Positions 17,483 through 44,123 of a DNA stretch of 64,000 bases are shown here, piece after piece; positions within the stretch are counted from its first letter, which is position 1, and every line of letters begins with the position of its first letter. The position numbers were made by a program, and so were the translations under genes. Source of the stretch: Candidatus Binatia bacterium (GTDB lineage Bacteria; Desulfobacterota; Binatia; UBA9968; JAJDTQ01). The stretch is taken from assembly GCA_963666515.2 (NCBI GenBank), contig OY762897.2:3040001-3104000 (forward strand), written 5' to 3'. The notes under the pieces were generated by a model. The model did no database searches. It was not told the origin of the DNA and saw only the letters and a list, made by a program, of their open reading frames with translations.

Positions 17483-20400
17483 TGGACAAACCGTTCAAAT
17501 ACGTGGAGCGCACCTGCACCGAAGTTACGGAGAATCCTGGTGGCGCGGACCGAACCGAAGATCGGACCGAATCCAGACCTCTTTCGCACTACCGCGATCA
17601 GGGTGCCTACGTACTGTTGGGAGCGCCCGGTGCCGGCAAGACGGAGGCGTTCAGGCATGAAGCCGGAGAGCGAGGATTCTGTGACGCGCGAGATTTCACG
17701 ACGTTGCGCCACGAGCGCTGGTCGAACGTGACCACCCTCTTCATCGACGGTCTGGACGAAATGCGGGCCGGAACGACCGACGGGCGAACCCCGCTCAACG
17801 CGATTCTATGGAATCTGGACCAGTTGAGGGGTCGCCGATTCCGATTGTCCTGCCGTGAAGCCGATTGGTTCGGCGCGGCTGACCGGAAGCGCCTCAATTC
17901 GGTATCGCCCGACGGCGTTGTCAAAGTCTTACGGCTGGATCCGTTGACCGACGAAGACATCCGAACGATCCTGGACACCTATCCCCAAATTGACGATGCC
18001 GATGAGTTCGTCGCCCAGGCCCATGGCAGAGGTCTGGACAGCCTGCTCAACAACCCTAAATGCCTTGAGATGCTAGTGCGAGCGGTCTCGGCGCAGCACG
18101 ACGGCGCGTGGCCGGATACACGGACCGAGGCATTCGACCTTGCCTGTCGAGCACTCGTTCAGGAACACAACGACGAGCACAATCTCGCGGAACGGGACCA
18201 TCGCGACATCTCCGGTCTGCTCGATACGGCGGGACGGCTATGCGTCGTTCAACTGCTGACCGGCAGCGCAGGATACCACAGGATCGGCAACCAACCAGCA
18301 ACCGACTACATCGCGTTGTATAACCTTCCGAATGCGAACACTCTTCGCGTCGAACTTGGCAGCAAGCTCTTCCGGTCGCCAGCCGATGATCGCGTGGTCC
18401 CGGTCCACAGGCACGTCGCCGAGTTTCTCGCCGGGCGCTACCTTTCCAGACTCATCGACGACGGTCTCCCCGTGCAACGAGTGCTCGCCCTCGTGACTGG
18501 AGAGGACGGCCGCACGGTCTCAGCGCTACGGGGCTTGGCGGCTTGGTTTGCCGCCCACTGCAAGGCCGCCCGCCAGGAGATCGTCGAACGGGATCCACTC
18601 GGCGCTATCCTTTACGGTGACGTCAGGAGTTTCTCCGTGGAGGAGAAAAGCTTCCTGCTGACGTGCCTGGAACAAAGCGCCGCGCGCGACCCGCGGTTGT
18701 TCGGAGCCATGCTTGATCTGGATTCTCGATGGGAGGACCTTGCCACCCCCGACATGGAAAAGACGTTTAGGGATATCTTGACAGCACCGCAAGGAAGCCA
18801 AGGAGAACAGACGGTGGTGTTGGCGGTGCTTCAATCGCTTCAGCGTGGCTCGACTATTTCCCACCTGACGTCCATGTTGCTGGACATCGCCAGAAACGGA
18901 GCGTGCTGGTCCCAAGTGAGAGACACCGCGCTCACAGCCTACATCCGACAATCGGACGACCCGGACAAGCGGGATCGTGAATTGAAAGCACTGTTAACCG
19001 AGGTTCATGAGGGCTCCGTATCCGATCCTGACGACCAACTGCTTGGGTACTTGCTGAGGGAACTCTATCCACGAACAGTGCCGTCGGCAGAAGTGTGCCG
19101 CTACTTGCGGGAACCGAGGATGGAGAGCCTCATAGGATGGTACTCGTTTTTCTGGGAGGAAGATGTTGCGGAACAATCGACGGACCACCAACTGGCCGAG
19201 GTGCTCGACTCTCTCGTGGAAACCTATCGTGAGCGGGGATGGACAGGCGACGCCAGCGGGGCATTGTCTTACTGGTTGCGCACAATCCCGGCTAATCTTC
19301 TGGCCGCTTTCATGGAGCGATCACCTGAGGTTGACAACGAGAGATTGTTTGCCTGGCTCGGCTTGACAGCGCAGTACACCAGTGCAGACCACAGGGTCAA
19401 CAACTGGCTTAGCGATAATCCAGATTCCTGCAAGCAATTGGTCCGTCTAGCTGCGGATCGCTATCCCGACCCATCCCAACTTGATCACGAAATTTTCATC
19501 CGCCTGCTCTACGCCGTTGAGCCGCCAGACTTCGGTGCATGGTGCCTCGCCCAAGCGGCAAAAACGGAAACGAACACGGAGGCGGCGAAGGAGTTTTTCC
19601 TGCGCCAAGTCATCGCCCGGCAAGATCAAGAAGGAATCTCCGACGAAGTCGTGGAACACCGTTTGGCCCATGAACCAAGCCTCGTGGCGCAGCACAAGGA
19701 GCAGCGACAAAACCGCGAACACGAAACGTCCAGGATCACGTCCAAGCGAACTGAACTGGAACAGCGGCGAGAGACCGAAGCAAGACAACGGCGGAGGGAA
19801 TGGCGCGACTTGGTCAAGGTTCACGAATTCGAATTGCAAGAGAACCGGGCAGCCCCTGTGCTCTTGCACCGCTTGGCGTCTGTCTACATCGGACAGTTTG
19901 TCGACGTACAGGGTCCCGCAGGGCAGTCTCGCCTTTACAACCTCTTGGGTGACGACGATCTAGTTGAACTGGTCATCGAGGCGTTTCGTGCCTCTACCAC
20001 GCGAGCGGATTTGCCCGACGCAACCGAGATCTTTCGTCTCGCAGACGATCAGAAACATCATTTCCTGATGTTGCCGTTCCTGGTGGGCCTCAATGAGATA
20101 CCCTCATCTCGTCCCGGCAAGGCTCCGCTGGACGAACAGGGAATGCGCCGCGCGCTGGCGTTTCGCTTCAATGCGCCTGACTTCTGGAACCAGGAACCAG
20201 AGTGGTACCGGGCCGTACTGAAGTCCCGCCCCGAGCTTGTTGCCGACATCCTGGTTCGAGCCGTTCGCGCCGATCTGCGACGGGGTGCGAATTCAGGTCT
20301 CGGTCTTCATGAACTGAGTCACGACAACAACTACTTACCGGTTGCGGAAATTGCAGTGACGCCGCTGCTGGAATCCTTCCCAACCCGTCTCAAGGTCGGG

Positions 20401-21588
20401 CAACTGCACGTATTGAAGGTGTTGCTCCAGGTCGCGTCTCGTCAAATCAACCGCCACGACCTATTGAGGATTGTTGAGAGCAAACTGGCCCTTCGCAGCA
20501 TGGACGTCGCACAGCAAATGTACTGGACTTGTGCGGGTCTGCTCTTGAAACCAGCACTCTTCACTGACCGGTTGCGGAAGAAACTGGCCGGTCGAGGCCA
20601 CGAACGTCGTGTCAGACACATTGCGGAGTTCCTTTACGACCGCAACAACTCCTCCATTGAGGAGCTCAGCGTTCCGGTCGTTCCGTCAATAGAGGCACTT
20701 GACGTCCCCGCGCTGGAACTCCTAATCAAGTCCCTCGGCAACTCTTACTGGCCTTATGGTTGGGCTGACGACAATACTGCGGTGGCACAAACCACGACTC
20801 ACAAGAATACGGACCATACAAGTTTCGTTGTTGACGGGCTCATCAACACCTTGGCTTCAGAGACCTCCCACGACGCTACGAAAGTGCTCGAACGCCTGTC
20901 CGCAGACGCCACGCTACGGCCTTGGCGTTTCACGCTACAGGACGCGTTGAGCCGGCAACGCGAAGTGCGCCGGGAAGCCGACTTCCGCCACCCGACTGTC
21001 GAACAGGTGCAGGAGACCCTCGACAACCGCCGGCCCGCCAATGTCGCGGATCTGGCGGCGCTCGCCATGGATGTTCTGGACGATTTGGCAAGGAACATAC
21101 GCCACGGGAACACTTCGGATTGGCGGCAGTACTGGAACGTGGATTCGTACAATCGTGCGCAGGACCCAAAGCCGGAGGACGCCTGCCGCGATGCGCTACT
21201 TTCTGACCTGAAGGCACGACTCGCTCCCTTAGGCGTCGACGCCCAGCCCGAAGGTACTTACGCCGACGACAAGAGAGCGGACATTCGCGTCTCGTGCGAC
21301 GGATTCAACGTGCCGATCGAGATCAAGAAGAGCACCCACGACGATCTGTGGAGGTCCATCCGCGACCAACTGATCGCCAAGTACACACGCGATCCGGACT
21401 GCGACGGTCACGGCATCTACCTCGTCTTCTGGTTCGACCGCAACCCGTGCAAACGCCCGCCAACCGGGCCGGTGCCGGAGACTCCTGACGCTCTGCGCGG
21501 CCAACTGCTCGCAACGGCTAACTTCTCCACTGAGGAACGCCAGAAGATTTCCATCGTCGTCATCGACGTGTCCAACCCAGAGCGCTAG
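17482..21588 (+). CDS. Large STAND/NACHT-like NTPase with a C-terminal PD-(D/E)xK-like domain
   Basis: LLGAPGAGKT, LFIDGLDE, LSCR, NNPKCL and HRHVAEFLAG motifs; long helical middle region; C-terminal RADIRV..VPIEIKK. TAATG overlap with the upstream gene. Confidence 0.85.
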   Translation: MDKPFKYVERTCTEVTENPGGADRTEDRTESRPLSHYRDQGAYVLLGAPGAGKTEAFRHEAGERGFCDARDFTTLRHERWSNVTTLFIDGLDEMRAGTTDGRTPLNAILWNLDQLRGRRFRLSCREADWFGAADRKRLNSVSPDGVVKVLRLDPLTDEDIRTILDTYPQIDDADEFVAQAHGRGLDSLLNNPKCLEMLVRAVSAQHDGAWPDTRTEAFDLACRALVQEHNDEHNLAERDHRDISGLLDTAGRLCVVQLLTGSAGYHRIGNQPATDYIALYNLPNANTLRVELGSKLFRSPADDRVVPVHRHVAEFLAGRYLSRLIDDGLPVQRVLALVTGEDGRTVSALRGLAAWFAAHCKAARQEIVERDPLGAILYGDVRSFSVEEKSFLLTCLEQSAARDPRLFGAMLDLDSRWEDLATPDMEKTFRDILTAPQGSQGEQTVVLAVLQSLQRGSTISHLTSMLLDIARNGACWSQVRDTALTAYIRQSDDPDKRDRELKALLTEVHEGSVSDPDDQLLGYLLRELYPRTVPSAEVCRYLREPRMESLIGWYSFFWEEDVAEQSTDHQLAEVLDSLVETYRERGWTGDASGALSYWLRTIPANLLAAFMERSPEVDNERLFAWLGLTAQYTSADHRVNNWLSDNPDSCKQLVRLAADRYPDPSQLDHEIFIRLLYAVEPPDFGAWCLAQAAKTETNTEAAKEFFLRQVIARQDQEGISDEVVEHRLAHEPSLVAQHKEQRQNREHETSRITSKRTELEQRRETEARQRRREWRDLVKVHEFELQENRAAPVLLHRLASVYIGQFVDVQGPAGQSRLYNLLGDDDLVELVIEAFRASTTRADLPDATEIFRLADDQKHHFLMLPFLVGLNEIPSSRPGKAPLDEQGMRRALAFRFNAPDFWNQEPEWYRAVLKSRPELVADILVRAVRADLRRGANSGLGLHELSHDNNYLPVAEIAVTPLLESFPTRLKVGQLHVLKVLLQVASRQINRHDLLRIVESKLALRSMDVAQQMYWTCAGLLLKPALFTDRLRKKLAGRGHERRVRHIAEFLYDRNNSSIEELSVPVVPSIEALDVPALELLIKSLGNSYWPYGWADDNTAVAQTTTHKNTDHTSFVVDGLINTLASETSHDATKVLERLSADATLRPWRFTLQDALSRQREVRREADFRHPTVEQVQETLDNRRPANVADLAALAMDVLDDLARNIRHGNTSDWRQYWNVDSYNRAQDPKPEDACRDALLSDLKARLAPLGVDAQPEGTYADDKRADIRVSCDGFNVPIEIKKSTHDDLWRSIRDQLIAKYTRDPDCDGHGIYLVFWFDRNPCKRPPTGPVPETPDALRGQLLATANFSTEERQKISIVVIDVSNPER

Positions 21589-26228: not shown

Positions 26229-27137
26229 TCATTCTTTGCCGAGCTGCGGGTCGTTCCGGTCGCCGGCGGCGATGCCCTTCTTCGGGGTGCCGTCCGGGTC
26301 GAGGTAGTCCTGCCATACGTGCGCGGCCTCGAACCCCAGCACCCTGGCTGCCTTGGTCACGTCGAGGCCGCCCCAGTGTCCTGAATAGCCCTCCCTGATC
26401 CTGGTGCCGGGGATGTATCGCCGGACCAGGTCGCCGGTGGGCTCCGGATACCGGCTGGTGGCCGCGGCGATGTTGAAGACCTCGTGTCCCGAGAGCGGCG
26501 TTTCGATGGCCAAGCGGCACGCGACCGCGGCGTCCCGGGCATCCACGTAGCTCCAGAACGTGCCCATCTTCGCCCCGGGGTCGGCCCATCGCTCCGGCAG
26601 CGTGGCGTAGGTCGGGTCGAAGTTCACGCCGCTGAACCGAAGGCTGACCACCGTGACATCGCTGTACCGCGTAACCGAGTCGGCAAGCTGCTCGCCGAAC
26701 ACCTTGGACAGCGCGTACGGGTCCTGGGGCCGGCAGGGGTACACCTCGTCCAGGGGCAGGTAGTCGGGCTCCCAAATCGTGGGAGCATAAAGGAACCCGT
26801 AGGCAGCGATGCTGGAAGCGCACACGACGCGCGGAACGCCCAGGTCCACCGCGGCCTTGAGCACGTTGTAGGTGGCGGTGACGTTATTGCCGAAGGTCTC
26901 GCAGTCGGGCGCCAGGTTGGGGGCCTGATACGCGCCGAGATGCACGACGGCGCCCGCGCCCCTGAAGGCCTCGTAGAGGTCGCCCGGGCGGCATAGGTCG
27001 CAGAGCCATGAATCGCACAGCCTGCTTGGCGGCGGCACGATGTCCAGGCTCAGCACCTCGTAACTGTGCTCGAGAAGGTGGCCGATGGCCTGCTGTCCGA
27101 GGAGGCCGCTGCCGCCGGTGACTACGACCTTTGGCAT
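26229..27137 (-). CDS. NAD-dependent epimerase/dehydratase (extended SDR)
   Basis: VVVTGGSGLLG, ASS and YALSK motifs. The ORF-track N-terminal extension is REP-derived. Confidence 0.9.
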   Translation of the reverse strand: MPKVVVTGGSGLLGQQAIGHLLEHSYEVLSLDIVPPPSRLCDSWLCDLCRPGDLYEAFRGAGAVVHLGAYQAPNLAPDCETFGNNVTATYNVLKAAVDLGVPRVVCASSIAAYGFLYAPTIWEPDYLPLDEVYPCRPQDPYALSKVFGEQLADSVTRYSDVTVVSLRFSGVNFDPTYATLPERWADPGAKMGTFWSYVDARDAAVACRLAIETPLSGHEVFNIAAATSRYPEPTGDLVRRYIPGTRIREGYSGHWGGLDVTKAARVLGFEAAHVWQDYLDPDGTPKKGIAAGDRNDPQLGKE

Positions 27138-27181
27138 CTGTGAGGTATCCACATACGAACCCGTCGGACCCCTCTCCCCGC

Positions 27182-27210
27182 CTGGATTCCGGGTCAAGCC
27201 CGGAATGACG
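27182..27210. repeat. CGTC-family REP
   Basis: ctggattccgggtcaagcccggaatgacg, identical to 35491-35519. Confidence 0.85.
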
Positions 27211-27235
27211 GACAGGAGGGAGGACCCGCGTCGCA

Positions 27236-28462
27236 TCACCGGAACGTTTGCAACTCTTTGGGCCTTACTCCGACGAAGGAGTCCAGCTTCACCAATCCTT
27301 CCGCGTTTTCTTCGAGCCGCAACGCCTTGGGCTCACGGCCCGCGGCCACGGCGTCGATGGCGTCGCGGACCATGCGGCGCAGCATGATGACGCCGCGGTC
27401 GGAGGTGCCCAGGCGCTCCTCACGCTCTCCCAGCAGCCGCTGGGTGCCCTGGGTGACGATGTCCTCCTGGCGGATGTTGCCGCGGAACGGCATGAGCGGG
27501 CGCTGGTCGTAGGGCTTCACGTCCCCCTTGGGGGTCTCGCGCTTCCGCATCTTCCCCAGCCGCTCGAAGATGTCCGGGTCCGGGCCGGTGTAGTAGTCCA
27601 CGGTGAACAGCATGAAGTGGTCGTCGTCGTTGGGGGTGAGGAACATGAAGTGCTCGTAGTTGGAGCCCACCTTCTCCAGCACCTCCGGCTCCACCCGCGC
27701 GTGCACGAACTCGGTGTCGCCCACCTGGAGGATGCTCGGCAGCCCCAGGCTCATCTCGTCGACGAACTCGGTGCCTTCCGACGGACCCGGCTTGGACATG
27801 ACCATCTTCATGCCGTAGGGGGTTTCCACGGGCTCGTAGTCCGGCGGGCTCTTGGCGCTGAAGAACTCGCCGCCCCAGGTCTGTTCGCCGTAGGCGCTGC
27901 GGCTGTGGAGGATCCAAACGTGGCAGGGGTCGGCGCTGTTCTCGTAGAAGTTGAACCAGTTGTAGTCGAAGTGCCGCGTGCTCTCCACCAGCCGCTGCCC
28001 GCCGTGGTCCACCAGCGGCGAATAGTTGGGCAGGGGCGGCGGATCATCGGGGTCCGGCCCCATGTAGGCGAAGATCAGTCCGCCCAGCGTCCGCACCGGA
28101 TAGGCCGGATGCTTCACCTTGGCGCAGAAGGCGGTCTCGGGCGGCTCGGAGGGCTGCTCCAGGCAGTGGCCCGCCACGTCGTAGAGCCAGCCGTGGTAGG
28201 GGCAGCGGATGCCGCGCTCCTCGATGTCGCCGTACTCCAGGGACGAGCCGCGGTGGGAGCAGTCCCGGCCGACGAGCCCCAGGCGGCCCCTGAGGTCGCG
28301 GAACAGCACCAGGTCCTCGCCCAGCACCCGCACGGCCCGGGGGACGTCGTGCAGTTCCGCCTCGGTGCCCACCGCGAGCCAGTAGCGCCGCAGCCACTCT
28401 CCGCCCGGCGTGCCCCGCCCCACGCGCGGGATGTCCTTGTTGGTGCTTCTGAACGTGTCCAC
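27236..28462 (-). CDS. Rieske oxygenase alpha subunit (phthalate 4,5-dioxygenase/LigX-like)
   Basis: CSHRG..CPYHGW Rieske motif, ENSADPCHVWILH mononuclear Fe motif, QED..TQG and ERLGTSDRGV. Confidence 0.92.
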   Translation of the reverse strand: MDTFRSTNKDIPRVGRGTPGGEWLRRYWLAVGTEAELHDVPRAVRVLGEDLVLFRDLRGRLGLVGRDCSHRGSSLEYGDIEERGIRCPYHGWLYDVAGHCLEQPSEPPETAFCAKVKHPAYPVRTLGGLIFAYMGPDPDDPPPLPNYSPLVDHGGQRLVESTRHFDYNWFNFYENSADPCHVWILHSRSAYGEQTWGGEFFSAKSPPDYEPVETPYGMKMVMSKPGPSEGTEFVDEMSLGLPSILQVGDTEFVHARVEPEVLEKVGSNYEHFMFLTPNDDDHFMLFTVDYYTGPDPDIFERLGKMRKRETPKGDVKPYDQRPLMPFRGNIRQEDIVTQGTQRLLGEREERLGTSDRGVIMLRRMVRDAIDAVAAGREPKALRLEENAEGLVKLDSFVGVRPKELQTFR

Positions 28463-35565: not shown

Positions 35566-37245
35566 CTACGCCACACGCCTTGAGGCCGCGGCCTCCGTCA
35601 GCGTGGTGGTCGGCGACACGTACTCCAGGTCCGTCAGCACCTCGATGAGCGCGGGGCCGGGGGCGGCAAGGGCCTGCTCCAGCGCCGGCAGGAACTCGTC
35701 GTCGCGGGTGACCTTGAGCCCCAGGGCGCCGTAGCCGTTTCCCAGGGCGGCGAAGTCGGGATTGACCAGGTCGGTGCCGTAGTTCCTGCCGGGGTACTGG
35801 GCCTCCTGGTCCATGCGGATGGTGCCGTAGGAGCCGTTGGCGTACACCATCACGATGATCTTCACCCCGTACTGGCGCGCGGTGGCGATTTCCTGTCCGG
35901 TCATCAGGAAGCCGCCGTCGCCCACGTGGGCGATGACGGTCCGTTCCGGATGGGCCAGCCTGGCGGCCACCGCGCCGGGCACCCCCGTGCCCATGCTGCC
36001 CAGGTTGGGGACGATGTAGGAATCGGCGTGGTCGAATTCGAGGTAGCGCTGCACCCAGCCCCCGAAGCTCCCGGCGTCGTGGGTGTGGATGGTGTCCGGC
36101 GGTACGGTGGCCTTGATGTCCGCCATCACCCGCTCCATGGACACCGCGCCGGTGGGGCGCTCCGGTGGGGTGGCGTAGGCCCGTTGCCGGGCGTGATAGT
36201 CGGCGATCCAGGCGGCGCGAGCCTCGTTGGGGCCGGCGCCGTCGCGTTCCAGCGCCGCGGCCAGGGCCTTGCGCGGGTCGGCCAGCACGGCCATGTCCGG
36301 GCTGAAGTTCTGGCCGATGTTGCCGGCGTCGGCGTCGATCTGAATCGTCGCCAGTCCCGGATGGGGCAGCGTGTAGTTGCCGGACACCTGCTGGTTGAAC
36401 CGGCACCCGACGATCAGCAACAGGTCGGCGTCGTCGCGCACGATCTGCTTGGCGTGGTTGTTGCGGCTGCCGAGGTTGCCGACGTAGTGGGGATGGGTGT
36501 TGGGGAACACGTCCTGGCGCTTGAAGGCGCTCAGCACCGGCATCTGGAACTTCTCGGCAAAGGCCACCAACTCGTCCCGGGCGCGCGCGTATTGAGTGCC
36601 TGAGCCCGCCAGCAGCACCGGCCTTTCCGCCCGGTTCACGCGCTCCACCATTTCGCGGATCAGTTGCGGATCCGGACCCGGCCGGACCGCAGGATAAGGA
36701 CCCACCATGGCGATGTCCGCCTCTTCCTCCAGCATGTCCCGGGGCAGGGACACCACCACCGGACCCGGCCGTCCCGAGCGCGCCACATGGAACGCCCGCG
36801 CCATGATGCGGGGCGCCTCGCGCGGGTCGTTGATCTCGATGACCCACTTGGCGATGCTGCCGAAGAAATGGGTGTAGTCGATCTCCTGGCCGGCCTCCCG
36901 GCCGCGGTGCGACCGCGCCACTTGGCCGATGAGCAGGATCAACGGAGTCGAGTCGTACCTGGCAAGGTGCACCCCGATGCTGGCGTTGGTGGCGCCGGGA
37001 CCGCGCGTGACCATGCACACGCCCGGCGTGCGGGTGGTCTTGCCGTAGGCCTCAGCCATGAGGCAGGCGCTGCCCTCGTGGCGGTTGGTGATGAGGGTGA
37101 TCTCCGGGACGTCCCGCAACCCGTCCAGCAGGGCGATGTAGCTCTCCCCCGGCACGGAGAAGGCGTGACGCACCCCTTCGTTGCGCAGCGACCGCGCCAC
37201 CGCGTGGCCTCCCGACATCCTGCGGCTCTGCTGATCGACGCTCAC
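35566..37245 (-). CDS. Thiamine-diphosphate-dependent enzyme (acetolactate synthase-like)
   Basis: VPGESY, RHEG, TRGPGATN and GDGGFLM..N ThDP motif. Confidence 0.92.
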   Translation of the reverse strand: MSVDQQSRRMSGGHAVARSLRNEGVRHAFSVPGESYIALLDGLRDVPEITLITNRHEGSACLMAEAYGKTTRTPGVCMVTRGPGATNASIGVHLARYDSTPLILLIGQVARSHRGREAGQEIDYTHFFGSIAKWVIEINDPREAPRIMARAFHVARSGRPGPVVVSLPRDMLEEEADIAMVGPYPAVRPGPDPQLIREMVERVNRAERPVLLAGSGTQYARARDELVAFAEKFQMPVLSAFKRQDVFPNTHPHYVGNLGSRNNHAKQIVRDDADLLLIVGCRFNQQVSGNYTLPHPGLATIQIDADAGNIGQNFSPDMAVLADPRKALAAALERDGAGPNEARAAWIADYHARQRAYATPPERPTGAVSMERVMADIKATVPPDTIHTHDAGSFGGWVQRYLEFDHADSYIVPNLGSMGTGVPGAVAARLAHPERTVIAHVGDGGFLMTGQEIATARQYGVKIIVMVYANGSYGTIRMDQEAQYPGRNYGTDLVNPDFAALGNGYGALGLKVTRDDEFLPALEQALAAPGPALIEVLTDLEYVSPTTTLTEAAASRRVA

Positions 37246-37427: not shown

Positions 37428-39716
37428 ATGAACTCCGCCTTTCTGGACCGCTACATCGAGTTCACGTTGCGCCGGCGATGGCTGGTCCTGGCGTCGTCGG
37501 TGGCGGTGATGCTGGTCCTGACGGCCGGCCTCCAGTTCCTCGACATCTCCAACGACTGGCGCGACATGCTCGACGAGGACAATCCTCAACTCGTCGCATA
37601 CGACGCCCTGGAGGACACCTACACGGCCACCAATGCGGCGGTGATCGCGGTGGCGCCCAAGGGCGGGTCGGTATTCACCCGCGAGGCCCTCGGAGCCATC
37701 GAGGAGCTGACGGAGGCCGCGTGGGAGGTGCCCTTTTCCAGCCGGGTCGACTCCCTTGTCAACTACAACCACAGTGAGGCGGTCGAGGACGACCTGAACG
37801 TCGAACGGCTCGTGGACGACGCCGCATCGCTCAGCGATGAAGACCTCGCGCGGATCAAGAAGATCGCGTTGGGCGAGCCCAGCGTCGCCGGCCGTCTCGT
37901 CTCCCACGACGGGCGCGTTGCCGGACTGGTGATCAACTTTACCTTGCCCGAGCATTCGGACGCCGCGGAGATCGAGACCTACCACTATCTCCGCGGCCTC
38001 CTGGACAAGGCCCGGGCCGCCCACCCGGATATCGACTATCACGTGACCGGCAACGTCTTCGTGAACCAAGTCCTGACGGAGGCGGCCCAGGACGACATGG
38101 GAATTCTAGCGCCCGCCGCCTTCCTGGTCATCATCCTGGTCGGCGCCTTCCTGCTGCGCTCCCTGTCCGGCACACTGTGCATCGTCATTCTGCTCATCTT
38201 CGTGGTCGCGTCCACCATGGGCGTCATCGGCTGGGCCGGATTGCTGCTCAACGCCGCCAACTCCGGCATTCCCCTCATCATCATGACCCTGGCCATCTGC
38301 GACTCGGTCCACATCATCGGGACCATCAACTCCGGCATGGGCCGGGGTCTGGACCGGGACGCGGCGATTGCCGAATCGCTGCGGGACAACGCATGGCCCA
38401 TCTTCCTCACGACGGCCACGACGATGATCGGGTTCCTCAGCATGAACGCTTCGGACTCGCCGCCCTTTCGGATCCTCGGCAACCTGGTGGCGGTCGGCAT
38501 GCTGTTCGCCTACGTGTATTCCATGACGCTTCTGCCCGCGCTGCTGGCGGTGCTGCCGTTGCGCGGGCGCGCCGCGCGCGCCGGGGGTTCCGCCTTCTTC
38601 GACCGCCTCGGCGCCTTCGTGGTGGCGCGCCGCACGCTCCTGCTCTGGTCCGTGGCCGCAGTGGCGGTCGCCCTGGTGGCCGGCGTGCCCCGCGTCGAGC
38701 TGACGGACAACTGGACCACCCATCTGGACAAGCGTTACGAGTTCCGGCGCGACACCGACTTCGTCATCGAGAACCTGACCGGCGTGGAAACGCTGGAGTA
38801 CAGCCTGGACGCCGGGCGCGACGGCGGCATCACCGATCCCGACTATCTGCGCAAGGTCGACGCTTTCGCCGAATGGTACCGCGCCCAGCCGGAAGTGGCG
38901 CACGTCCAGGTGTTCTCGGACATCATGAAGCGCCTCAACAAGAACATGCACGGCGACGATCCGGCCTTCTACCGGGTGCCCGAAGACTCCCGGCTCGCCG
39001 CGCAGTACCTGCTGCTCTACGAGCTTTCGGTCCCCTTCGGCATGGACCTCAACAACCGCATCAACGTCGCCAAGTCGGCGACGCGCATGACCGTCACGCT
39101 CGCGAGGCTTAAGTCCGAGGAGCTGCGCGCGCTCGAAGTGCGCGGTCAGGACTGGCTCCGCGCCAACGCGCCCGACCTGGCGCGCGAGGCTTCGGGCTAC
39201 AGCCTCGTCTTCGCCCACCTGGCCATACGGAACACCCTGAGCATGTTGTGGGGCACGGTGACCGGCATGATCGTCATCTCGCTCATCCTCATCGGGATCT
39301 TCAGAAGCGTGCGCTTCGGCCTCATGAGCCTCGTGCCCAACCTCATCCCCTCGGCCATGGCCTTCGGCGTCTGGGGCTATCTGTACAGCGAGGTTGGGCC
39401 GGCCGGTTCCCTCGTCACCGCCATCGCCTTCGGCACCGTCGTCGACGACACGATCCACATCATGGCCAAGTACCTGAAGGCGCGTCGCGACGGCCTTCCC
39501 TCGCCCGAAGCGGTGCGCTACAGCTTCAATTCCGTAGGGGGCGCGTGCTTCACCACGACCATGATGCTGGTGCTGGGCTTCCTGGTATTCGCTACTTCGG
39601 GATTCGCCATCAGTTGGATGCTCGGCCTCCTGGTCGCGCTCACGCTCGGCTTCGCGCTGTTCCTCGATCTTCTGCTCCTGCCGCCCTTGCTGATGGCCAT
39701 CGACCGGAAGACCTGA
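37428..39716 (+). CDS. MMPL/RND (HAE3-like) lipid transporter
   Basis: Two MMPL repeats (ICDSVH; GTVVDDTIH), large periplasmic loops, AQYLLLYELS. Confidence 0.9.
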   Translation: MNSAFLDRYIEFTLRRRWLVLASSVAVMLVLTAGLQFLDISNDWRDMLDEDNPQLVAYDALEDTYTATNAAVIAVAPKGGSVFTREALGAIEELTEAAWEVPFSSRVDSLVNYNHSEAVEDDLNVERLVDDAASLSDEDLARIKKIALGEPSVAGRLVSHDGRVAGLVINFTLPEHSDAAEIETYHYLRGLLDKARAAHPDIDYHVTGNVFVNQVLTEAAQDDMGILAPAAFLVIILVGAFLLRSLSGTLCIVILLIFVVASTMGVIGWAGLLLNAANSGIPLIIMTLAICDSVHIIGTINSGMGRGLDRDAAIAESLRDNAWPIFLTTATTMIGFLSMNASDSPPFRILGNLVAVGMLFAYVYSMTLLPALLAVLPLRGRAARAGGSAFFDRLGAFVVARRTLLLWSVAAVAVALVAGVPRVELTDNWTTHLDKRYEFRRDTDFVIENLTGVETLEYSLDAGRDGGITDPDYLRKVDAFAEWYRAQPEVAHVQVFSDIMKRLNKNMHGDDPAFYRVPEDSRLAAQYLLLYELSVPFGMDLNNRINVAKSATRMTVTLARLKSEELRALEVRGQDWLRANAPDLAREASGYSLVFAHLAIRNTLSMLWGTVTGMIVISLILIGIFRSVRFGLMSLVPNLIPSAMAFGVWGYLYSEVGPAGSLVTAIAFGTVVDDTIHIMAKYLKARRDGLPSPEAVRYSFNSVGGACFTTTMMLVLGFLVFATSGFAISWMLGLLVALTLGFALFLDLLLLPPLLMAIDRKT

Positions 39717-39808
39717 CTTCCCTTTCCCGACCCGTTGAAATGCAGTAGTCTTTAGGTAGTCGGCCCGAGTAGCCCCAAGCTACTTGCATGACGTACGGAG
39801 GTGAGGCT

Positions 39809-41840
39809 GATGGCCCAATCGATGGCGCCCATGGCAAGTCCGCCGACGCTGACTTTGTCCGAAGAACTCATCCTGATGCTCCTGGACGAAGAGACCGGCT
39901 ACTTTCGCCAGGTGCCCGGGTGGAATCTGAACTGCGTGGTCGTCGGCGCCGTGCTTGCGGAACTCTCGCTCCGGTCCCGCATCGACACGGATCTGGAGTC
40001 CCTGACTCTTGAGGACCGGACGGAAACGGGGGACCCTGTCCTGGATTCCGTCCTGAAGGAAATCGCCGGCGAGCCGGAACGACGGAACGCGCGGTACTGG
40101 ATAGAACGGCTCGCTTCCCGCGCGGACGACATCATTGACCAACGTCTGGATCAACTGGTTGATCTGAAGATCCTCGTCCATCACCCCGGCGACTTCTGGA
40201 CGGTGTCTCCCACTGCCTGGCACGTGGGAGCGGACACCGGCTCCGGCGAAAGCACCGTCGTCGAGTACGTCAAGACGCGTATCAGCAGGATCATCTTCAG
40301 CAATGAGATCCCCGAGCCCTGGGACATCATCATCATCTGCCTGCTCGAGACCTGCGACATCACGCGCTTCATATTCCAACTGGATGACGAAACAGAGAAG
40401 CGTATCGAACTGATCTGCAAGATGGACCTGATCGGCCGGTCCATCGCCGATGCGGTCGCCGACAACATGGCCGGCCCGATGCTTCAGCGTCCCGCATTGA
40501 CCAAGACCATTCCGACCGTCCCCCTGCGTCACGTCATCTTCAGCCGTCACCTTCGCAGCGGCAACCTTCCGGCTCTCTTTGCCGAACTCGCAGAGAAGCA
40601 TGGTCCCGTATTCCGGATTCGCCCGCCGTTTGCGGAGCCCATGATCTTTCTGGCCGGACCACGGACAAATCGCTGGGCGCATCGGCACGGACGCATGTAC
40701 CTGAGAGCGAGGGACTACCTGGAGGACTTCGAGAAAGTCTACGGCGCTTCCGGAATACTGCCTGCGCTGGATGGCACGGATCATTTCCGATTTCGGAAAT
40801 CCATGCACCAGGCCTACTCTCGCGGGCGGCTGGCAGGGCGGCTGGATGATCTCTTCAGACACGGCCGAGCCCATATGGCAGGTTGGAAGGTGGGAGACTC
40901 ACTCCCCGCGGTGAAAATGACCCGGCGGTTGAGCAACGCTTCCATCTCTCCGCTCTTCAACAGTGTCGATTCGCAGGATCTTGTCGACGGCATGATCGAG
41001 TACAAGGAACGGGCGCTCTGCACTCACCTCATAAAAGTCCTGCCCAAGTTCATGCTTCATACCCCGGGGATGAAGCGCCGGGCGACCAACATCCAGGAGG
41101 TGCTGGACCGGGTCCAACGCATACATACACCCGCCCAGCGGGCCGGATGTCCTCGGGATTTCGCGGATGACCTGTTGAGCCTGCACAAGAGCGATCCGCA
41201 GTTTCTCCCGGAGTCGAATCTGCGTTTCGCCCTTTCGGCGCCGCTGATTGCCAGCATGTACGTGGGCGACATGCTTGGCTTCGCGTTCTACGCCATGGCG
41301 ACTCAGCCCGGGATGTACGAGAGAATCCGAAGCGAAGCCGATGCCGTCTTCGACAACGGCGACCCGGACAGCGACGCGTTCGACCCCTCCGTGATCGACG
41401 TCACCCGCCGATTCGTGATGGAGGTTGCGCGTCTTTACCCCATCGTCCCGGTGTCGGTTCGAACCGTGATGAATTCGTGCGTTGTCGAGGGCTACGAACT
41501 GCCGGAGGGATCACGGACCTTTATTGCCCAGTCGGCCGCGCACTACATGAGCGACGTCTTCCCCGAACCCTTTTCGTTCGACATCGACCGCTATCTTCCT
41601 TCGCGCAAGGAGCATGTCAATCCCGGATACGCCCCGTTCGGGGTGGGCACGCACACGTGCCTCGGACAAGCGTGGGTAGAACTGTTCATGGCTGCCCACG
41701 TGCTGCTTCTCGCGCATCACTTCACGATCAAGGTGCTTCCCGAGAACCACAGGCTCAAGATCGCCCCGTTCCCCTCGCTGTCTCTGAGCAAGAAGTTCAA
41801 GTTCCACGTCACCGAAAAGAGGCGCGAGATACCTGTCTGA
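39809..41840 (+). CDS. GPP34 (GOLPH3-like) domain - cytochrome P450 fusion
   Basis: N-terminal LTLSEELILMLLD..GAVLAELSLRSRID..TGDPVLD (GPP34 pattern). C-terminal EVAR (ExxR), FDIDRY and FGVGTHTCLG heme-thiolate motif. Exact start uncertain. Confidence 0.85.
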
Positions 41841-41845
41841 CGGTT

Positions 41846-42880
41846 CTAAAGTGGCTTGCGAGCCAGGAAGCAGTAGAGCGGCGTGAAGATGCCGGCTCGA
41901 CCGCCCGCGACGTAGGCGTCAGCGGTCCGATCCAGCAGCCGGACGACTTCCGTGGAGCCCTTGGGAAACAGCCGCAGCAATTCGGCCAGCTTCAGGCCCG
42001 CGATGAACGCCTTGCGACCCCAAGGAGTTCTGAGCAAGGTGTTGGCCAATTTCCCGTGCCGGCTCTCCATGGGCTGGTACCACGGCGTGGACGGCCCCTC
42101 CTTGACCTCCCTGTCCAACCCCTCGACGACGTGGAATCCCGCCGCTTCGAGGGCCTGATTCGTCGCCCTCATGGAACTGATGTCTTGCAGCGCAATGCCA
42201 CGCATGAGATCCCGCTTGATGGCCTGGTGCCGGCTGTCGTTCGGATCGAACTTGTCCGTCAGACACATGTCCTGCCCCCAGAACAGGGCTCCGGGTTTCA
42301 GGACGCGGAATATCTCCGCGAACGCACGTTGCTTGTCCGGTGCATGGCACGTTGACTCGATGGCATAGCCTCTGTCGAACGTGTCGTCTTCAATCACCGC
42401 CATGTCCATGAAACTGCAACGCACGTAGTCTACCTTGTGTTCAAGCCCTGCTTCGGCGTTCAGCGCTTTGGCCTTCTCCAACTGGATGGCACTGTTGTTG
42501 ATCCCCACAACCCGGACGCCGGACTCACGGACGACCCGGCGCATCGGGCCGCCGATCCCGCAGCCGACATCGATCACCGTCATGCTCTCCCGCAACTCCA
42601 GCTTGTCGATCATCAATCGCTGGTGCCGGACGATGGAATCCTCCACACTCTCCTGAGGCGTAAGGGGCGCGAAGTGCAAAGATTCGTTCCAACCCCACAC
42701 CATGAAATCGCTGCAAAGGTCGTAGTAGCCTCTTACCGTTTCGGTGTGATCGTACCCGCCAGCGCCGCCGTCCTTCGCCGTCGCCCGGTCGATCCAGCCG
42801 TCGAAGTCTCTCACGCGACGAGGGACGTCGGCCCCCCGGTACGCGTTCTTCAGCGCGTTCGATAATCTGGCGAGTTGCAT
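41846..42880 (-). CDS. Sterol 24-C-methyltransferase-like (ERG6/SMT family) SAM methyltransferase
   Basis: YYDLCSDF..WGWNESLHFA, IDVGCGIGGP, YAIESTCHAP, IFRVLKPG and C-terminal GIFTPLYCFLARKP. Confidence 0.85.
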   Translation of the reverse strand: MQLARLSNALKNAYRGADVPRRVRDFDGWIDRATAKDGGAGGYDHTETVRGYYDLCSDFMVWGWNESLHFAPLTPQESVEDSIVRHQRLMIDKLELRESMTVIDVGCGIGGPMRRVVRESGVRVVGINNSAIQLEKAKALNAEAGLEHKVDYVRCSFMDMAVIEDDTFDRGYAIESTCHAPDKQRAFAEIFRVLKPGALFWGQDMCLTDKFDPNDSRHQAIKRDLMRGIALQDISSMRATNQALEAAGFHVVEGLDREVKEGPSTPWYQPMESRHGKLANTLLRTPWGRKAFIAGLKLAELLRLFPKGSTEVVRLLDRTADAYVAGGRAGIFTPLYCFLARKPL

Positions 42881-42984
42881 GACGTGCTTGAACCCCCTAA
42901 CGCGTTTGTCGTCGCGGGACAAAGAGCCCGGCTGCCTGATCCGATGGTTCAACCATTGCGGGAGCATCCTGTACGGCCGGCGAT

Positions 42985-44034
42985 TCAGGAGGGCGTAGCG
43001 CCGCCGGTGTCGCACGGATCGGCATAGAACTGGGCGCAGTAGTGCCTGAAGGGCATGATCCTGCCGTCGGAAGCGCACAGGCGCGGGCGCGATCTATATT
43101 GCTTGCGGCTCCAGATGACCACGTCCTGCATGACGTCGCGCCGTTGCTGAGACGCCATGAACTTGTTCAACAGGGGGGCGCGCCATCGCACCGGCAGGAA
43201 CCCCAGGCCTGCGATCTTCCGCCGCGGCTTGCGTATCTCCCGTATCTGCGAGACCAGTGACAGGTCGATCAGCGTGCCGTCCACCGGGGTCGCCAGCACC
43301 CACAGGCGCGCGTCCATGCCGATGGAGTGCTCACGGATTTCCACGAACGAGTAGCCGAGCCCGAAGACGTGGGCGATGACCGACGTGTCGAAGCTGAGGG
43401 TTGTGACCCTGGCGATGGTTCGCTTCGTCTTGAAGTCGAAACGACTCTCGAGGAAGGGACCGTCCACGGACACTTCCCTGACGGGATTCACGTCATGGTA
43501 GCCGTGGACGTGGCGCAGGTGAGCGAAATCGACCGAATTCTCGGTCGTCTCCTGGGGATGGCCGGGAAAGCGCAGGGTCGTGATCTCGAAGCCGCTCCAA
43601 CCGGCCTGATCCGGCAGCTCCGGGGGCAGGCTCCATTGCGGCTCCCGCCCCCGGAGCCCCCACCAGGCGAAGATCAGGCCGAGAACTTCCCGCGTCGCGA
43701 AGACTCGTAATCTGGCGCTCTTGGGGGGAGGGGCAAAGGGCGTGGCGACGCACTGGCCGGTGGCGTCGAATTCGTAGCCATGGAAAGGGCAGATCAGCCG
43801 GCCGTCGCGGATGCGCCCACCGGCGGATGGCCCAAGATCGGAACCCAGGTGAGGGCAAACCGATTCGGCGACGCAGACGCGCCCGTCCCCGTCACACCAG
43901 ACGACGACGTTCTCGCCCATCCACGTCTTTTGGATGAGTCCGGCCTTTTTCAGCACGGCCTGGCGGGTTGCGACGAAGTACCACCCCTCGGGAAATGGGG
44001 AAGGCAAGGGGGCGTTCGTGGCCGACGTCCTCAT
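42985..44034 (-). CDS. Rieske sterol oxygenase/desaturase (Neverland/DAF-36 or KshA-like)
   Basis: FPEGWY, CPHLG..CPFHG, ENSVDFAHLRHVH and QDVVIWSRK..P.L...DG.I..FR....QFY. Confidence 0.85.
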   Translation of the reverse strand: MRTSATNAPLPSPFPEGWYFVATRQAVLKKAGLIQKTWMGENVVVWCDGDGRVCVAESVCPHLGSDLGPSAGGRIRDGRLICPFHGYEFDATGQCVATPFAPPPKSARLRVFATREVLGLIFAWWGLRGREPQWSLPPELPDQAGWSGFEITTLRFPGHPQETTENSVDFAHLRHVHGYHDVNPVREVSVDGPFLESRFDFKTKRTIARVTTLSFDTSVIAHVFGLGYSFVEIREHSIGMDARLWVLATPVDGTLIDLSLVSQIREIRKPRRKIAGLGFLPVRWRAPLLNKFMASQQRRDVMQDVVIWSRKQYRSRPRLCASDGRIMPFRHYCAQFYADPCDTGGATPS

Positions 44035-44123
44035 TTGAGTCAATTTGTACCACTGTCGCGCCCGCTGTGCTAGATTGATAGCAAGATTGATAACGAAAGT
44101 TCGCCTGATCGAAGGGAAGGAAC

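What the first reader, a model, noticed from the sequence alone, without database searches (positions are those of the whole stretch)
37428..44034. Candidate bacterial sterol-tailoring cassette: MMPL + GPP34-P450 facing an ERG6-like methyltransferase + Neverland/KshA-like Rieske enzyme
Seen: four adjacent lipid/sterol-type genes in two convergent pairs (stops at 41840 and 41846), with no sterol ring-degradation or oxidosqualene cyclase genes in the window. Established: ERG6/SMT alkylates sterol C-24, Neverland/DAF-36 Rieske proteins are cholesterol 7-desaturases, KshA is a 3-ketosteroid 9-alpha-hydroxylase, and MMPL/RND proteins move sterols and hopanoids. SMT homologs occur in some uncultured bacteria, including sponge symbionts. 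Inference: a module that takes up host or dietary sterols and remodels them (C-7 desaturation, C-24 alkylation, P450 side-chain oxidation or desaturation), possibly toward ergosterol-like or sponge-type biomarker sterols.
Basis: partly seen in the sequence, partly recalled or inferred. Interest (0 to 1): 0.82.

Follow-up and report, generated by a model that had tools for sequence, protein, structure and literature searches.

The report
Sponge-symbiont sterol-type lipid tailoring cassette
These four genes are one copy of a gene module that sponge-dwelling bacteria of many phyla share; it probably modifies and moves sterol-like lipids the bacterium cannot make itself, but its exact chemistry is unknown.

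Summary
Four intact genes lie at the stated coordinates in two convergent pairs: an MMPL/RND transporter, a GPP34-P450 fusion, a sterol-methyltransferase-like enzyme (SMT) and a KshA_C-type Rieske oxygenase.

They are a unit. Of 80 SMT-centred loci from at least 10 phyla, 71 hold the GPP34-P450, 62 the Rieske gene and 57 an RND pump. Nine loci lie within 10 kb of de novo sterol genes; none lies near squalene-synthesis genes.

The window's genome (98% complete) has no triterpene cyclase. Neither do 43 of the 80 other genomes, and 62 of 80 lack an oxidosqualene cyclase (OSC) orthologue. A host-derived sterol is therefore the likeliest substrate (about 0.55).

- The SMT belongs to a divergent clade with a changed sterol-binding Region I (S78, N86, L89).
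- The Rieske protein is not a KshA orthologue. Its relation to Neverland was not tested.
- RND pumps of this type usually export.
- The genome makes squalene (HpnCDE), which leaves a non-sterol substrate possible.

New for this window: the module sits in a rearranging slot shared within the genus, and its P450 is probably a foreign replacement.

The parts are published (Brown 2023, Ferreira 2025). I found no paper that links them. This scan found the same module before on other DNA.

The parts
37428..39716 (+). MMPL/RND transporter (HAE3-like) with a sterol-sensing-domain-like region, 762 aa
   Evidence: Pfam MMPL 114.3 bits, Patched 32.5, Sterol-sensing 30.3. NCBIfam HAE3 142 bits (cut-off 352) and HpnN 69 bits (cut-off 752), both below cut-off. 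92-96% identical to the congeners' copies. A 62% paralogue lies beside HpnCDE elsewhere in the genome.
39801..41840 (+). GPP34-P450 fusion ('GPP34_L'), 679 aa: GPP34 domain at about aa 19-220, complete P450 at about aa 245-679
   Evidence: Pfam GPP34 100.5 bits and p450 121.1 bits. The heme Cys loop (G614, G616, H618, C620, L621, G622) and ExxR (E541, R544) are invariant in 27 aligned family members. AlphaFold model: mean pLDDT 79.8, pTM 0.79. The fold is a standard class II-like P450; best matches are CYP184A1, CYP2D6, BM3 and CYP51. GC3 is 0.765 against 0.88-0.93 in the flanks.
41841..41845 (.). 5-nt spacer between the convergent stop codons
   Evidence: Read directly. No terminator-like site lies here.
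41846..42880 (-). Divergent sterol-methyltransferase-like enzyme, 344 aa (the longest ORF runs to 43078)
   Evidence: Sterol_MT_C 63.2 bits. Region II is DVGCGIGGP. Region I reads GWNESLHF with S78, M81, V82 and W83 in yeast numbering. 70-82% identical to homologues in at least 10 phyla. About 40% identical to canonical SMT paralogues.
42985..44043 (-). Rieske non-heme iron oxygenase with a KshA_C-type catalytic domain, 352 aa (first ATG at 44034)
   Evidence: Pfam Rieske 59.9 bits and KshA_C 84.2 bits. The CPH...CPFH cluster ligands and an E-x3-D-x2-H-x4-H iron motif were read. Best solved relative is KshA 2zyl, 78.9 bits. 82-85% identical to congeners and 55-76% to other phyla.

Best explanation
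The four genes are one copy of a horizontally shared module of sponge-associated bacteria. Its core is a divergent SMT-like methyltransferase, a GPP34-P450 fusion and a KshA_C-type Rieske oxygenase. An RND-type lipid pump nearly always lies beside them, and an amine-oxidase-like flavoprotein often does (missing in this window).

Inferred mechanism:
1. A sterol-type lipid is the substrate. This bacterium cannot cyclise squalene, so it must obtain the lipid from the sponge or its food.
2. The lipid reaches the cytoplasmic membrane.
3. The P450 oxidises it. The GPP34 domain stands where eukaryote-like P450s carry a membrane anchor, and I propose that it holds the enzyme at the membrane.
4. The Rieske oxygenase hydroxylates or desaturates it.
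5. The SMT-like enzyme adds a SAM methyl group to a double bond. This is probably not the standard delta-24 substrate.
6. The MMPL pump moves the product outward, as HpnN does for hopanoids and BstA probably does for sterols.

What is shown: gene content, domain integrity, conservation of the module across phyla, its adjacency to sterol genes, and the absence of a cyclase. What is inferred: the substrate class, the order of steps, the direction of transport and the role of GPP34.
For: 1. The module is real. Of 80 SMT loci, 71 hold GPP34-P450 (55 within 500 bp of the SMT), 62 hold the Rieske gene, 58 hold both and 57 hold an RND pump.
2. It is linked to sterol genes. In Nitrospira locus L006 the order is sdmB, sdmA, ERG24, CYP51, SQMO-OSC fusion, canonical SMT, divergent SMT, GPP34-P450. 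De novo sterol genes lie within 10 kb in 9 of 80 loci, and a canonical SMT lies in 5 more. HpnC, HpnD and HpnE lie in 0 of 80 loci.
3. The substrate is exogenous in most hosts. The own genome has no cyclase. Of the 80 other genomes, 18 have an OSC orthologue, 19 have only SHC-like hits and 43 have no hit. Sixteen genomes lack both a cyclase and HpnD.
4. Congeners G087 and G104 (97-98% complete, no PF13243 hit) carry an SMT with an intact canonical Region I in the same slot.
5. All catalytic motifs are intact.
6. The MMPL family includes HpnN and the sterol transporter BstA (PMC10942540, passages).
7. Ferreira et al. report GPP34 fused to P450 in 656 of 663 long forms and to a Rieske domain in two genomes, all from sponge symbionts (PMC11706023, section 18).
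Against: - No enzyme of this module has a demonstrated activity.
- The SMT deviates at 3 of the 13 residues I could map (T78S, G86N, F89L) among the 25 conserved in all functional SMTs. The authors say such changes may mark SMTs that are inactive on desmosterol and 24-methylenecholesterol.
- Earlier scan notes say tested members of this branch were inactive. I could not confirm this from the held text.
- The genome encodes HpnC, HpnD and HpnE above the NCBIfam cut-offs. HpnD-like genes occur in 59 of 80 module genomes. Endogenous squalene is therefore an available alternative substrate.
- RND pumps normally export, so entry of a host sterol is unexplained.
- No reductase or ferredoxin partner lies in the cassette.
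- The canonical I-helix acid-alcohol pair is not evident in the P450.
- PDB and fold matches of the P450 are generic.
Confidence: 0.55

Rival explanations
1. The module tailors a non-sterol isoprenoid. The leading candidate is squalene made by the bacterium's own HpnCDE, methylated and oxidised into an acyclic triterpenoid membrane lipid and exported by the MMPL.
For: The own genome has HpnC (271 bits, cut-off 250), HpnD (315, cut-off 279) and HpnE (398, cut-off 283) beside a 62% MMPL paralogue and a LolA-like gene, but no cyclase. Of the 43 cyclase-less module genomes, 25 (plus 2 ambiguous) have HpnD. The SMT's Region I is rebuilt. Recalled, not tested here: SMT-family enzymes of Botryococcus methylate squalene.
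Against: HpnCDE is never within 10 kb of the module (0 of 80 loci), whereas sterol genes or a canonical SMT are in 14 of 80. Sixteen module genomes have neither a cyclase nor HpnD. Cyclase-less congeners keep a canonical-motif SMT in the same slot.
Confidence: 0.2
2. The GPP34-P450 is a host-directed effector that binds PI4P and helps the symbiont escape phagosome maturation (Ferreira et al. 2025). Its neighbours would then be functionally unrelated.
For: GPP34 is a PI4P-binding family in eukaryotes, and the fusion is reported only from sponge symbionts (PMC11706023, abstract and sections 18 and 25).
Against: The fusion lies within 500 bp of the SMT in 55 of 80 loci across phyla. It is a complete P450 with invariant heme ligands, so it needs heme and a redox partner. 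I saw no N-terminal signal-like stretch in the sequence (by eye). Similarity to Vps74 and GOLPH3 is weak (E 0.003-0.03) and covers only the first ~100 residues.
Confidence: 0.07
3. In cyclase-less genomes the module is a leftover of a de novo sterol pathway and has no current substrate.
For: It abuts de novo clusters in Nitrospirales. Seven of the 18 OSC matches carry an in-frame stop. An earlier scan note describes a decayed copy elsewhere.
Against: All four ORFs are intact here. Full-length SMTs at 70-82% identity persist in 62 genomes without an OSC orthologue. The slot is being remodelled with intact genes rather than decaying.
Confidence: 0.1
4. The genes belong to steroid catabolism, with KshA-like ring opening and P450 side-chain oxidation.
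For: KshA is the best solved relative of the Rieske protein.
Against: The match is remote: 79 bits, against 162-457 bits for the best 150 cluster representatives. A methyltransferase is not a catabolic step. No KshB, KstD or Hsa-type neighbour appears in the Pfam annotation of the window. A genome-wide search for steroid catabolism genes was not done.
Confidence: 0.03

Closest known systems
Bacterial sterol gene clusters with SMTs in sponge symbionts (Brown et al. 2023, Nat Commun, PMC10070321)
   Same: Both have a Sterol_MT_C methyltransferase in sponge-symbiont genomes. In the Nitrospira and A. aerophoba clusters a second SMT, about 35% identical to ERG6, sits two genes from the canonical one (Supplementary Data 1). 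L006 shows the same layout, with the window's SMT clade in that position.
   Different: The window's genome has no OSC, SQMO, CYP51 or SdmAB orthologue. The window holds only the divergent SMT. In the paper's main text, 'P450', 'Rieske', 'operon' and 'gene neighborhood' each occur 0 times.
GPP34_L (GPP34 + cytochrome P450) proteins of sponge symbionts (Ferreira et al. 2025, Microbiome, PMC11706023)
   Same: Identical two-domain architecture and the same spread over many phyla.
   Different: The paper proposes PI4P binding and phagosome evasion. 'Sterol', 'methyltransferase' and 'MMPL' each occur 0 times in its main text. Here the gene sits in a sterol-type enzyme and pump cassette.
KshA, 3-ketosteroid 9-alpha-hydroxylase oxygenase (PDB 2zyl, 4qdc)
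   Same: Rieske domain plus KshA_C catalytic domain, and both metal motifs.
   Different: Only 79 bits to KshA, aligned over residues 12-180 and 301-345. The protein is 352 aa against 386-394 aa. No KshB lies nearby. Hundreds of unnamed clusters are closer.
HpnN and BstA, MMPL-family RND transporters for hopanoids and bacterial sterols
   Same: PF03176 with an SSD-like region, encoded beside lipid-tailoring genes.
   Different: Far below the NCBIfam HpnN cut-offs: 69 bits against 752, and 27 against 1100. No BstB, BstC or LolA-like partner lies in the cassette. No sequence comparison with BstA was possible.

Membership tests
Sterol C-24 methyltransferase (ERG6/SMT) | Sterol_MT_C domain (PF08498) after a class I SAM methyltransferase domain | tested here: met
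   63.2 bits against a cut-off of 21.7; Methyltransf_11 63.1 bits.
Sterol C-24 methyltransferase (ERG6/SMT) | Region II SAM-binding motif DxGxGxxGP | tested here: met
   DVGCGIGGP in the translation. Motif taken from the Brown & Welander preprint, section 9.
Sterol C-24 methyltransferase (ERG6/SMT) | Region I residues conserved in all functional SMTs: Y74, T78 and 84-GWGxxFHF-91 | tested here: not met
   The window has Y74, S78 and GWNESLHF. L89 occurs in 81 of 82 clade rows; N86 occurs in only 2 of 82. All 13 canonical paralogues keep T78, E82, G86 and F89.
Sterol C-24 methyltransferase (ERG6/SMT) | Methylation of a delta-24 sterol in vitro | not testable with these tools
   The tables and figures of Brown 2023 and of the 2025 preprint that name the inactive SMTs are images or PDFs not held here.
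KshA (3-ketosteroid 9-alpha-hydroxylase) | Rieske CxH...CxxH ligands, mononuclear iron motif and KshA_C domain | tested here: met
KshA (3-ketosteroid 9-alpha-hydroxylase) | Close sequence relation to characterised KshA | tested here: not met
   78.9 bits to 2zyl. The best 150 of 355 cluster representatives with E <= 1e-30 score 162-457 bits.
KshA (3-ketosteroid 9-alpha-hydroxylase) | KshB-type reductase partner nearby | tested here: not met
   None among the ORFs annotated between 22 and 64 kb. The rest of the genome was not searched.
Neverland/DAF-36 cholesterol 7-desaturase | Grouping with animal Neverland proteins in a tree | not tested
   No Neverland sequence could be obtained through the tools. 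The only lead is an automatically named 'cholesterol 7-desaturase family' Myxococcota cluster at rank 22.
GPP34_L (Ferreira et al. 2025) | N-terminal GPP34 and C-terminal P450 in one protein | tested here: met
   The fusion is conserved in 27 aligned homologues.
HpnN/BstA-type lipid RND transporter | MMPL family with an SSD-like region | tested here: met
   PF03176 114 bits; PF12349 30.3 bits.
HpnN/BstA-type lipid RND transporter | Score above the NCBIfam HpnN equivalog cut-off | tested here: not met
   TIGR03480 69.1 bits against 751.85; NF052374 26.9 against 1100.
De novo bacterial sterol biosynthesis cluster | OSC, SQMO, CYP51 and SdmA/SdmB present in the genome | tested here: not met
   No PF13243 hit in the 98.35%-complete genome. 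A tblastn search with the L006 proteins gives only weak paralogue-level hits.

The most novel reading that the evidence does not exclude
Sponge symbionts without a cyclase use this module to convert host sterols into unconventional sponge sterols. The divergent SMT would methylate a side-chain double bond other than delta-24, for example after the P450 or Rieske step. If so, part of the 'sponge' sterol and sterane signature is made by bacteria from many phyla, and GPP34-P450 is a sterol enzyme rather than a host-manipulation effector.
Probability: 0.15. Interest if true: 0.85.

Novelty: new variant of a known kind. Interest (0 to 1): 0.55.

Why it matters
Side-chain-alkylated steranes are used as evidence for early animals, so it matters who makes or remodels such sterols. 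This module would give bacteria that cannot make sterols a way to alter them.

It also offers a testable alternative to the published role of GPP34-P450, a hallmark protein of sponge symbionts. The variable slot in this genus provides natural gene-content variants for comparison: with or without the Rieske gene, the flavoprotein or a canonical SMT.

Tried and rejected
- Expression: no RNA holder was listed for the 6.6-kb stretch, and read laying was not run.
- Promoter and terminator scans gave counts at chance level.
- The upstream Rieske and epimerase pair (26229-28462) as SdmA/SdmB: rejected. It scores 56.6 bits against a cut-off of 600 and has at least 10 paralogues in the genome.
- The idea that the window's SMT came from Nitrospirales: rejected. 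It sits unresolved at the base of the clade, next to the congeners.
- GC3 as evidence of transfer: my genome-wide control was contaminated by non-coding frames. I use only the local contrast.
- Names for Rieske relatives: 10 clusters carried only generic names.
- P0169, a 645-aa Rieske protein, as a GPP34-Rieske fusion: its N-terminal 300 residues have no Pfam hit.
- PDB search with the SMT: only generic methyltransferases.
- Fold search with the P450 model: generic P450s, no substrate clue.
- Which of Brown's SMTs were inactive: not stated in the held text of either version or of the xlsx files.
Full report
**Observation.** Pfam confirms each domain call:
- an MMPL/RND transporter with Patched and sterol-sensing-like hits;
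- a single ORF joining GPP34 (100.5 bits) to a P450 (121 bits);
- a methyltransferase with the Sterol_MT_C domain (63.2 bits);
- a Rieske protein with a KshA_C catalytic domain (84.2 bits).

NCBIfam places none of them in a curated equivalog. The convergent stops are 5 nt apart. The SMT most likely starts at 42880, because homologues are 342-344 aa. The other annotated ORFs of the window are ordinary metabolic genes with no cyclase or steroid-degradation signature.

**The genes are a unit.** A scan of one genome per prokaryotic species found 298 relatives of the SMT. The best 80 loci, at 70-82% identity, come from these groups as their record titles name them:

| Group | Loci |
|---|---|
| Chloroflexota | 24 |
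| Gemmatimonadota | 12 |
| Nitrospirota | 11 |
| Latescibacterota | 10 |
| Thermodesulfobacteriota | 5 |
| Bacteroidota/Rhodothermales | 4 |
| Nitrospinota | 3 |
| Gammaproteobacteria | 2 |
| Acidobacteriota | 2 |
| Actinomycetota | 1 |
| Unclassified | 6 |

I ran tblastn with fixed identity and coverage thresholds over all 80 loci:

| Neighbour of the SMT | All 80 loci | 67 loci with ≥5 kb on both sides |
|---|---|---|
| GPP34-P450 | 71 (55 within 500 bp) | 62 |
| KshA_C Rieske | 62 (52 within 3 kb) | 55 |
| Both | 58 | 52 |
| Any RND pump | 57 | 55 |
| Amine-oxidase-like flavoprotein | 34 | 30 |

The pumps fall into three types: 13 of the window's MMPL type, 19 of a Chloroflexota SSD-MMPL type and 25 of AcrB type. 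The flavoprotein is 76-92% identical across phyla. It is absent from the window and from the whole own genome.

Many bin names follow the style of published sponge-microbiome bins. Ferreira et al. assign an 'SB0661' bin to Ircinia ramosa. The hosts of most other records were not checked.

**Link to sterols.** In Nitrospira locus L006 the gene order is sdmB, sdmA, ERG24, CYP51, an SQMO-OSC fusion, a canonical SMT, the divergent SMT, then GPP34-P450. This matches the A. aerophoba and Nitrospira clusters in Supplementary Data 1 of Brown et al. 2023. There, one SMT about 35% identical to ERG6 lies near another that is 39-42% identical.
- De novo sterol genes lie within 10 kb of the module in 9 of 80 loci.
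- A canonical SMT paralogue lies there in 5 more.
- Squalene-synthesis genes lie there in 0 of 80.

**Most carriers cannot make sterols.** The window's genome (4.67 Mb, 2 contigs, 98.35% complete) has no SQHop_cyclase_C hit. It also has no orthologue of OSC, SQMO, CYP51, SdmA or SdmB. I searched the 80 other genomes with the L006 OSC domain:

| Result | Genomes |
|---|---|
| OSC orthologue (73-100% identity) | 18 (7 of these matches hold one in-frame stop) |
| Only SHC-like hits (27-36% identity) | 19 |
| No hit | 43 |

Many of these genomes are MAGs, so a missing hit is weaker evidence than in the closed genomes. Within the window's genus, 11 of 24 other species have an SMT match. Eight of those matches are full-length and of the divergent type. 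None of 16 genomes from other families of the order has a match.

Congeners G087 and G104 have no cyclase. Yet beside the divergent SMT they carry a second SMT whose Region I is the textbook motif. A working-type SMT in a bacterium without a cyclase points to an external sterol source.

**What the enzymes are not.**

*The SMT.* It belongs to a clade separated from canonical paralogues by a fully supported long branch (quick tree). The Brown & Welander preprint (2025; section 9 and passages read) lists 25 residues conserved in all functional SMTs. I could map 13 of them by motif.
- The window keeps 10 and differs at T78S, G86N and F89L.
- Position 81 is Met and position 83 is Trp, where canonical enzymes have Tyr or Phe.
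- L89 and M81 are clade-wide, each in 81 of 82 rows.
- N86 is nearly private to the window, in 2 of 82 rows.

[quoted passage not shown] The held texts say only that 2 of 10 symbiont SMTs (2023) and 11 in total (2025) were inactive. They do not name this clade, and the relevant figures, tables and PDFs were not readable. C-24 methylation is therefore doubtful but not excluded.

*The Rieske protein.* It has both metal motifs, and KshA is its best solved relative at only 78.9 bits. In a library of 50%-identity clusters, 355 representatives reach E ≤ 1e-30. The best 150 score 162-457 bits. The ten clusters I looked up have only generic names. It is a member of a large uncharacterised KshA_C family, not a KshA orthologue. 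I could not compare it with Neverland.

*The P450.*
- It is complete, with invariant heme and ExxR residues.
- It models as a normal class II-like P450.
- Its closest solved sequences are taxadiene hydroxylase, CYP51 and CYP120.
- None of this identifies a substrate.
- The usual acid-alcohol pair of the I-helix is not evident in the alignment.

**An alternative substrate.** About 385 kb from the window, the genome encodes HpnC, HpnD and HpnE above their equivalog cut-offs. IspH, an unknown 417-aa protein, a LolA-like protein and a 62% paralogue of the window's MMPL follow them. The bacterium therefore makes squalene without a cyclase. HpnD-like genes occur in 59 of 80 module genomes. Among the 43 cyclase-less genomes, 25 have one, 2 are ambiguous and 16 have none. 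This keeps a squalene-type substrate open. The physical clustering favours sterols.

**New for this window.** The slot between the aldolase and the TPP-enzyme genes is shared by seven congeners, but its content is shuffled:

| Genome or locus | Order between aldolase and TPP enzyme |
|---|---|
| Window | Rieske, SMT, P450, MMPL |
| L043 | P450, Rieske, flavoprotein, MMPL, SMT |
| L084 | P450, SMT, MMPL |
| L085 | P450, Rieske, SMT, flavoprotein, MMPL, canonical SMT |
| L086 and L087 | P450, Rieske, MMPL, SMT, canonical SMT |

Protein identities show which genes diverge:

| Protein | Among the seven congeners | Window to congeners |
|---|---|---|
| MMPL | 92-96% | 93-95% |
| Rieske | 85-96% | 82-85% |
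| SMT | three allele groups, 68-80% apart | 72-82% |
| GPP34-P450 | 83-93% | 64-66% |

In the tree, the congeners' P450s form a fully supported clade inside a 45-row clade that excludes the window's copy. Forcing all eight together costs 51 log-likelihood units (AU p = 0.03). I named that group after seeing the tree, and the window's branch is long. The window's P450 and SMT also have lower GC3 (0.77 and 0.80) than the flanking genes (0.88-0.93). The simplest reading is that a foreign P450 replaced the resident one during a rearrangement that also removed the flavoprotein. Rapid divergence in place is not excluded.

**Comparison with print.** Brown et al. 2023 describe the SMTs and the de novo clusters. 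In the main text, 'P450', 'Rieske', 'operon' and 'gene neighborhood' each occur 0 times. Ferreira et al. 2025 describe the GPP34-P450 fusion as exclusive to sponge symbionts and propose PI4P-mediated phagosome evasion. 'Sterol', 'methyltransferase' and 'MMPL' each occur 0 times in their main text. Three full-text searches found no paper that describes this module:
- GPP34 + P450 + bacteria;
- sponge + symbionts + sterol + Rieske + methyltransferase;
- GPP34 + sterol + sponge.

The link appears to be unpublished in the held library. This scan has noted the same module repeatedly on other genomes.

**Verdict.** The cassette is a new variant of a known kind, bacterial sterol-type tailoring clusters of sponge symbionts. 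Its chemistry is unknown.

**Papers and how much of each I saw.**
- PMC10070321: outline, sections 6 and 7, passages, one xlsx file read in full, term searches over three xlsx files.
- bioRxiv 2022.05.16.491679: one term search only.
- PMC11706023: abstract, sections 9 and 18, passages.
- 10.64898/2025.12.19.695621: section 9 and passages.
- PMC4064121 and PMC10942540: passages.

The supplementary PDFs of Brown 2023 and the supplements of the preprints were not available. They may settle whether SMTs of this clade were tested.

Noticed in passing
own genome G000:C1:3464500-3473030 (locus L083:7502-16030), outside the window: HpnC, HpnD and HpnE score above their equivalog cut-offs. IspH, an unknown 417-aa gene, a LolA-like gene and an MMPL 62% identical to the window's follow them. 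The genome has no squalene or oxidosqualene cyclase, so the fate of its squalene is unexplained.
   Followed up: partly
window 26229-28462 (-): A Rieske oxygenase (408 aa) and an SDR/epimerase pair look like SdmA/SdmB at first glance. They score only 56.6 bits against the SdmA cut-off of 600, and the Rieske gene has at least 10 paralogues across the genome.
   Followed up: partly
window 16217-21588 (+): A lower-GC block (0.59-0.62) holds a DUF4143 AAA ATPase followed directly by a 1368-aa ORF with no Pfam hit. It may be a mobile or defence island.
   Followed up: partly
L001:5335-6723 and 33 other loci; absent from the window: An amine-oxidase-like flavoprotein (PF01593; not HpnE by NCBIfam) is 76-92% identical across phyla. 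It is a fifth recurrent member of the module, and its role is unknown.
   Followed up: partly
L001:11142-11864; also L003 and L004: In some Nitrospirales a FA_hydroxylase (ERG3/ERG25-type) gene lies between the divergent SMT and the GPP34-P450.
   Followed up: no
genomes G002, G028, G039, G045, G069, G078, G079: Seven of the 18 OSC orthologue matches contain one in-frame stop. These could be pseudogenes, recoding or assembly errors.
   Followed up: no
L008 (unclassified MAG): One 21-kb locus holds three MMPL copies and two canonical-type SMT paralogues besides the divergent SMT.
   Followed up: no
window 36275-36358 (+): ARAGORN calls a tRNA-Phe inside the TPP-enzyme gene, on the opposite strand. 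This is probably a false positive.
   Followed up: no
protein P0008 (477 aa): A database protein joins a C-terminal KshA_C fragment to a full divergent SMT. It is either a read-through gene call or a real Rieske-SMT fusion.
   Followed up: no
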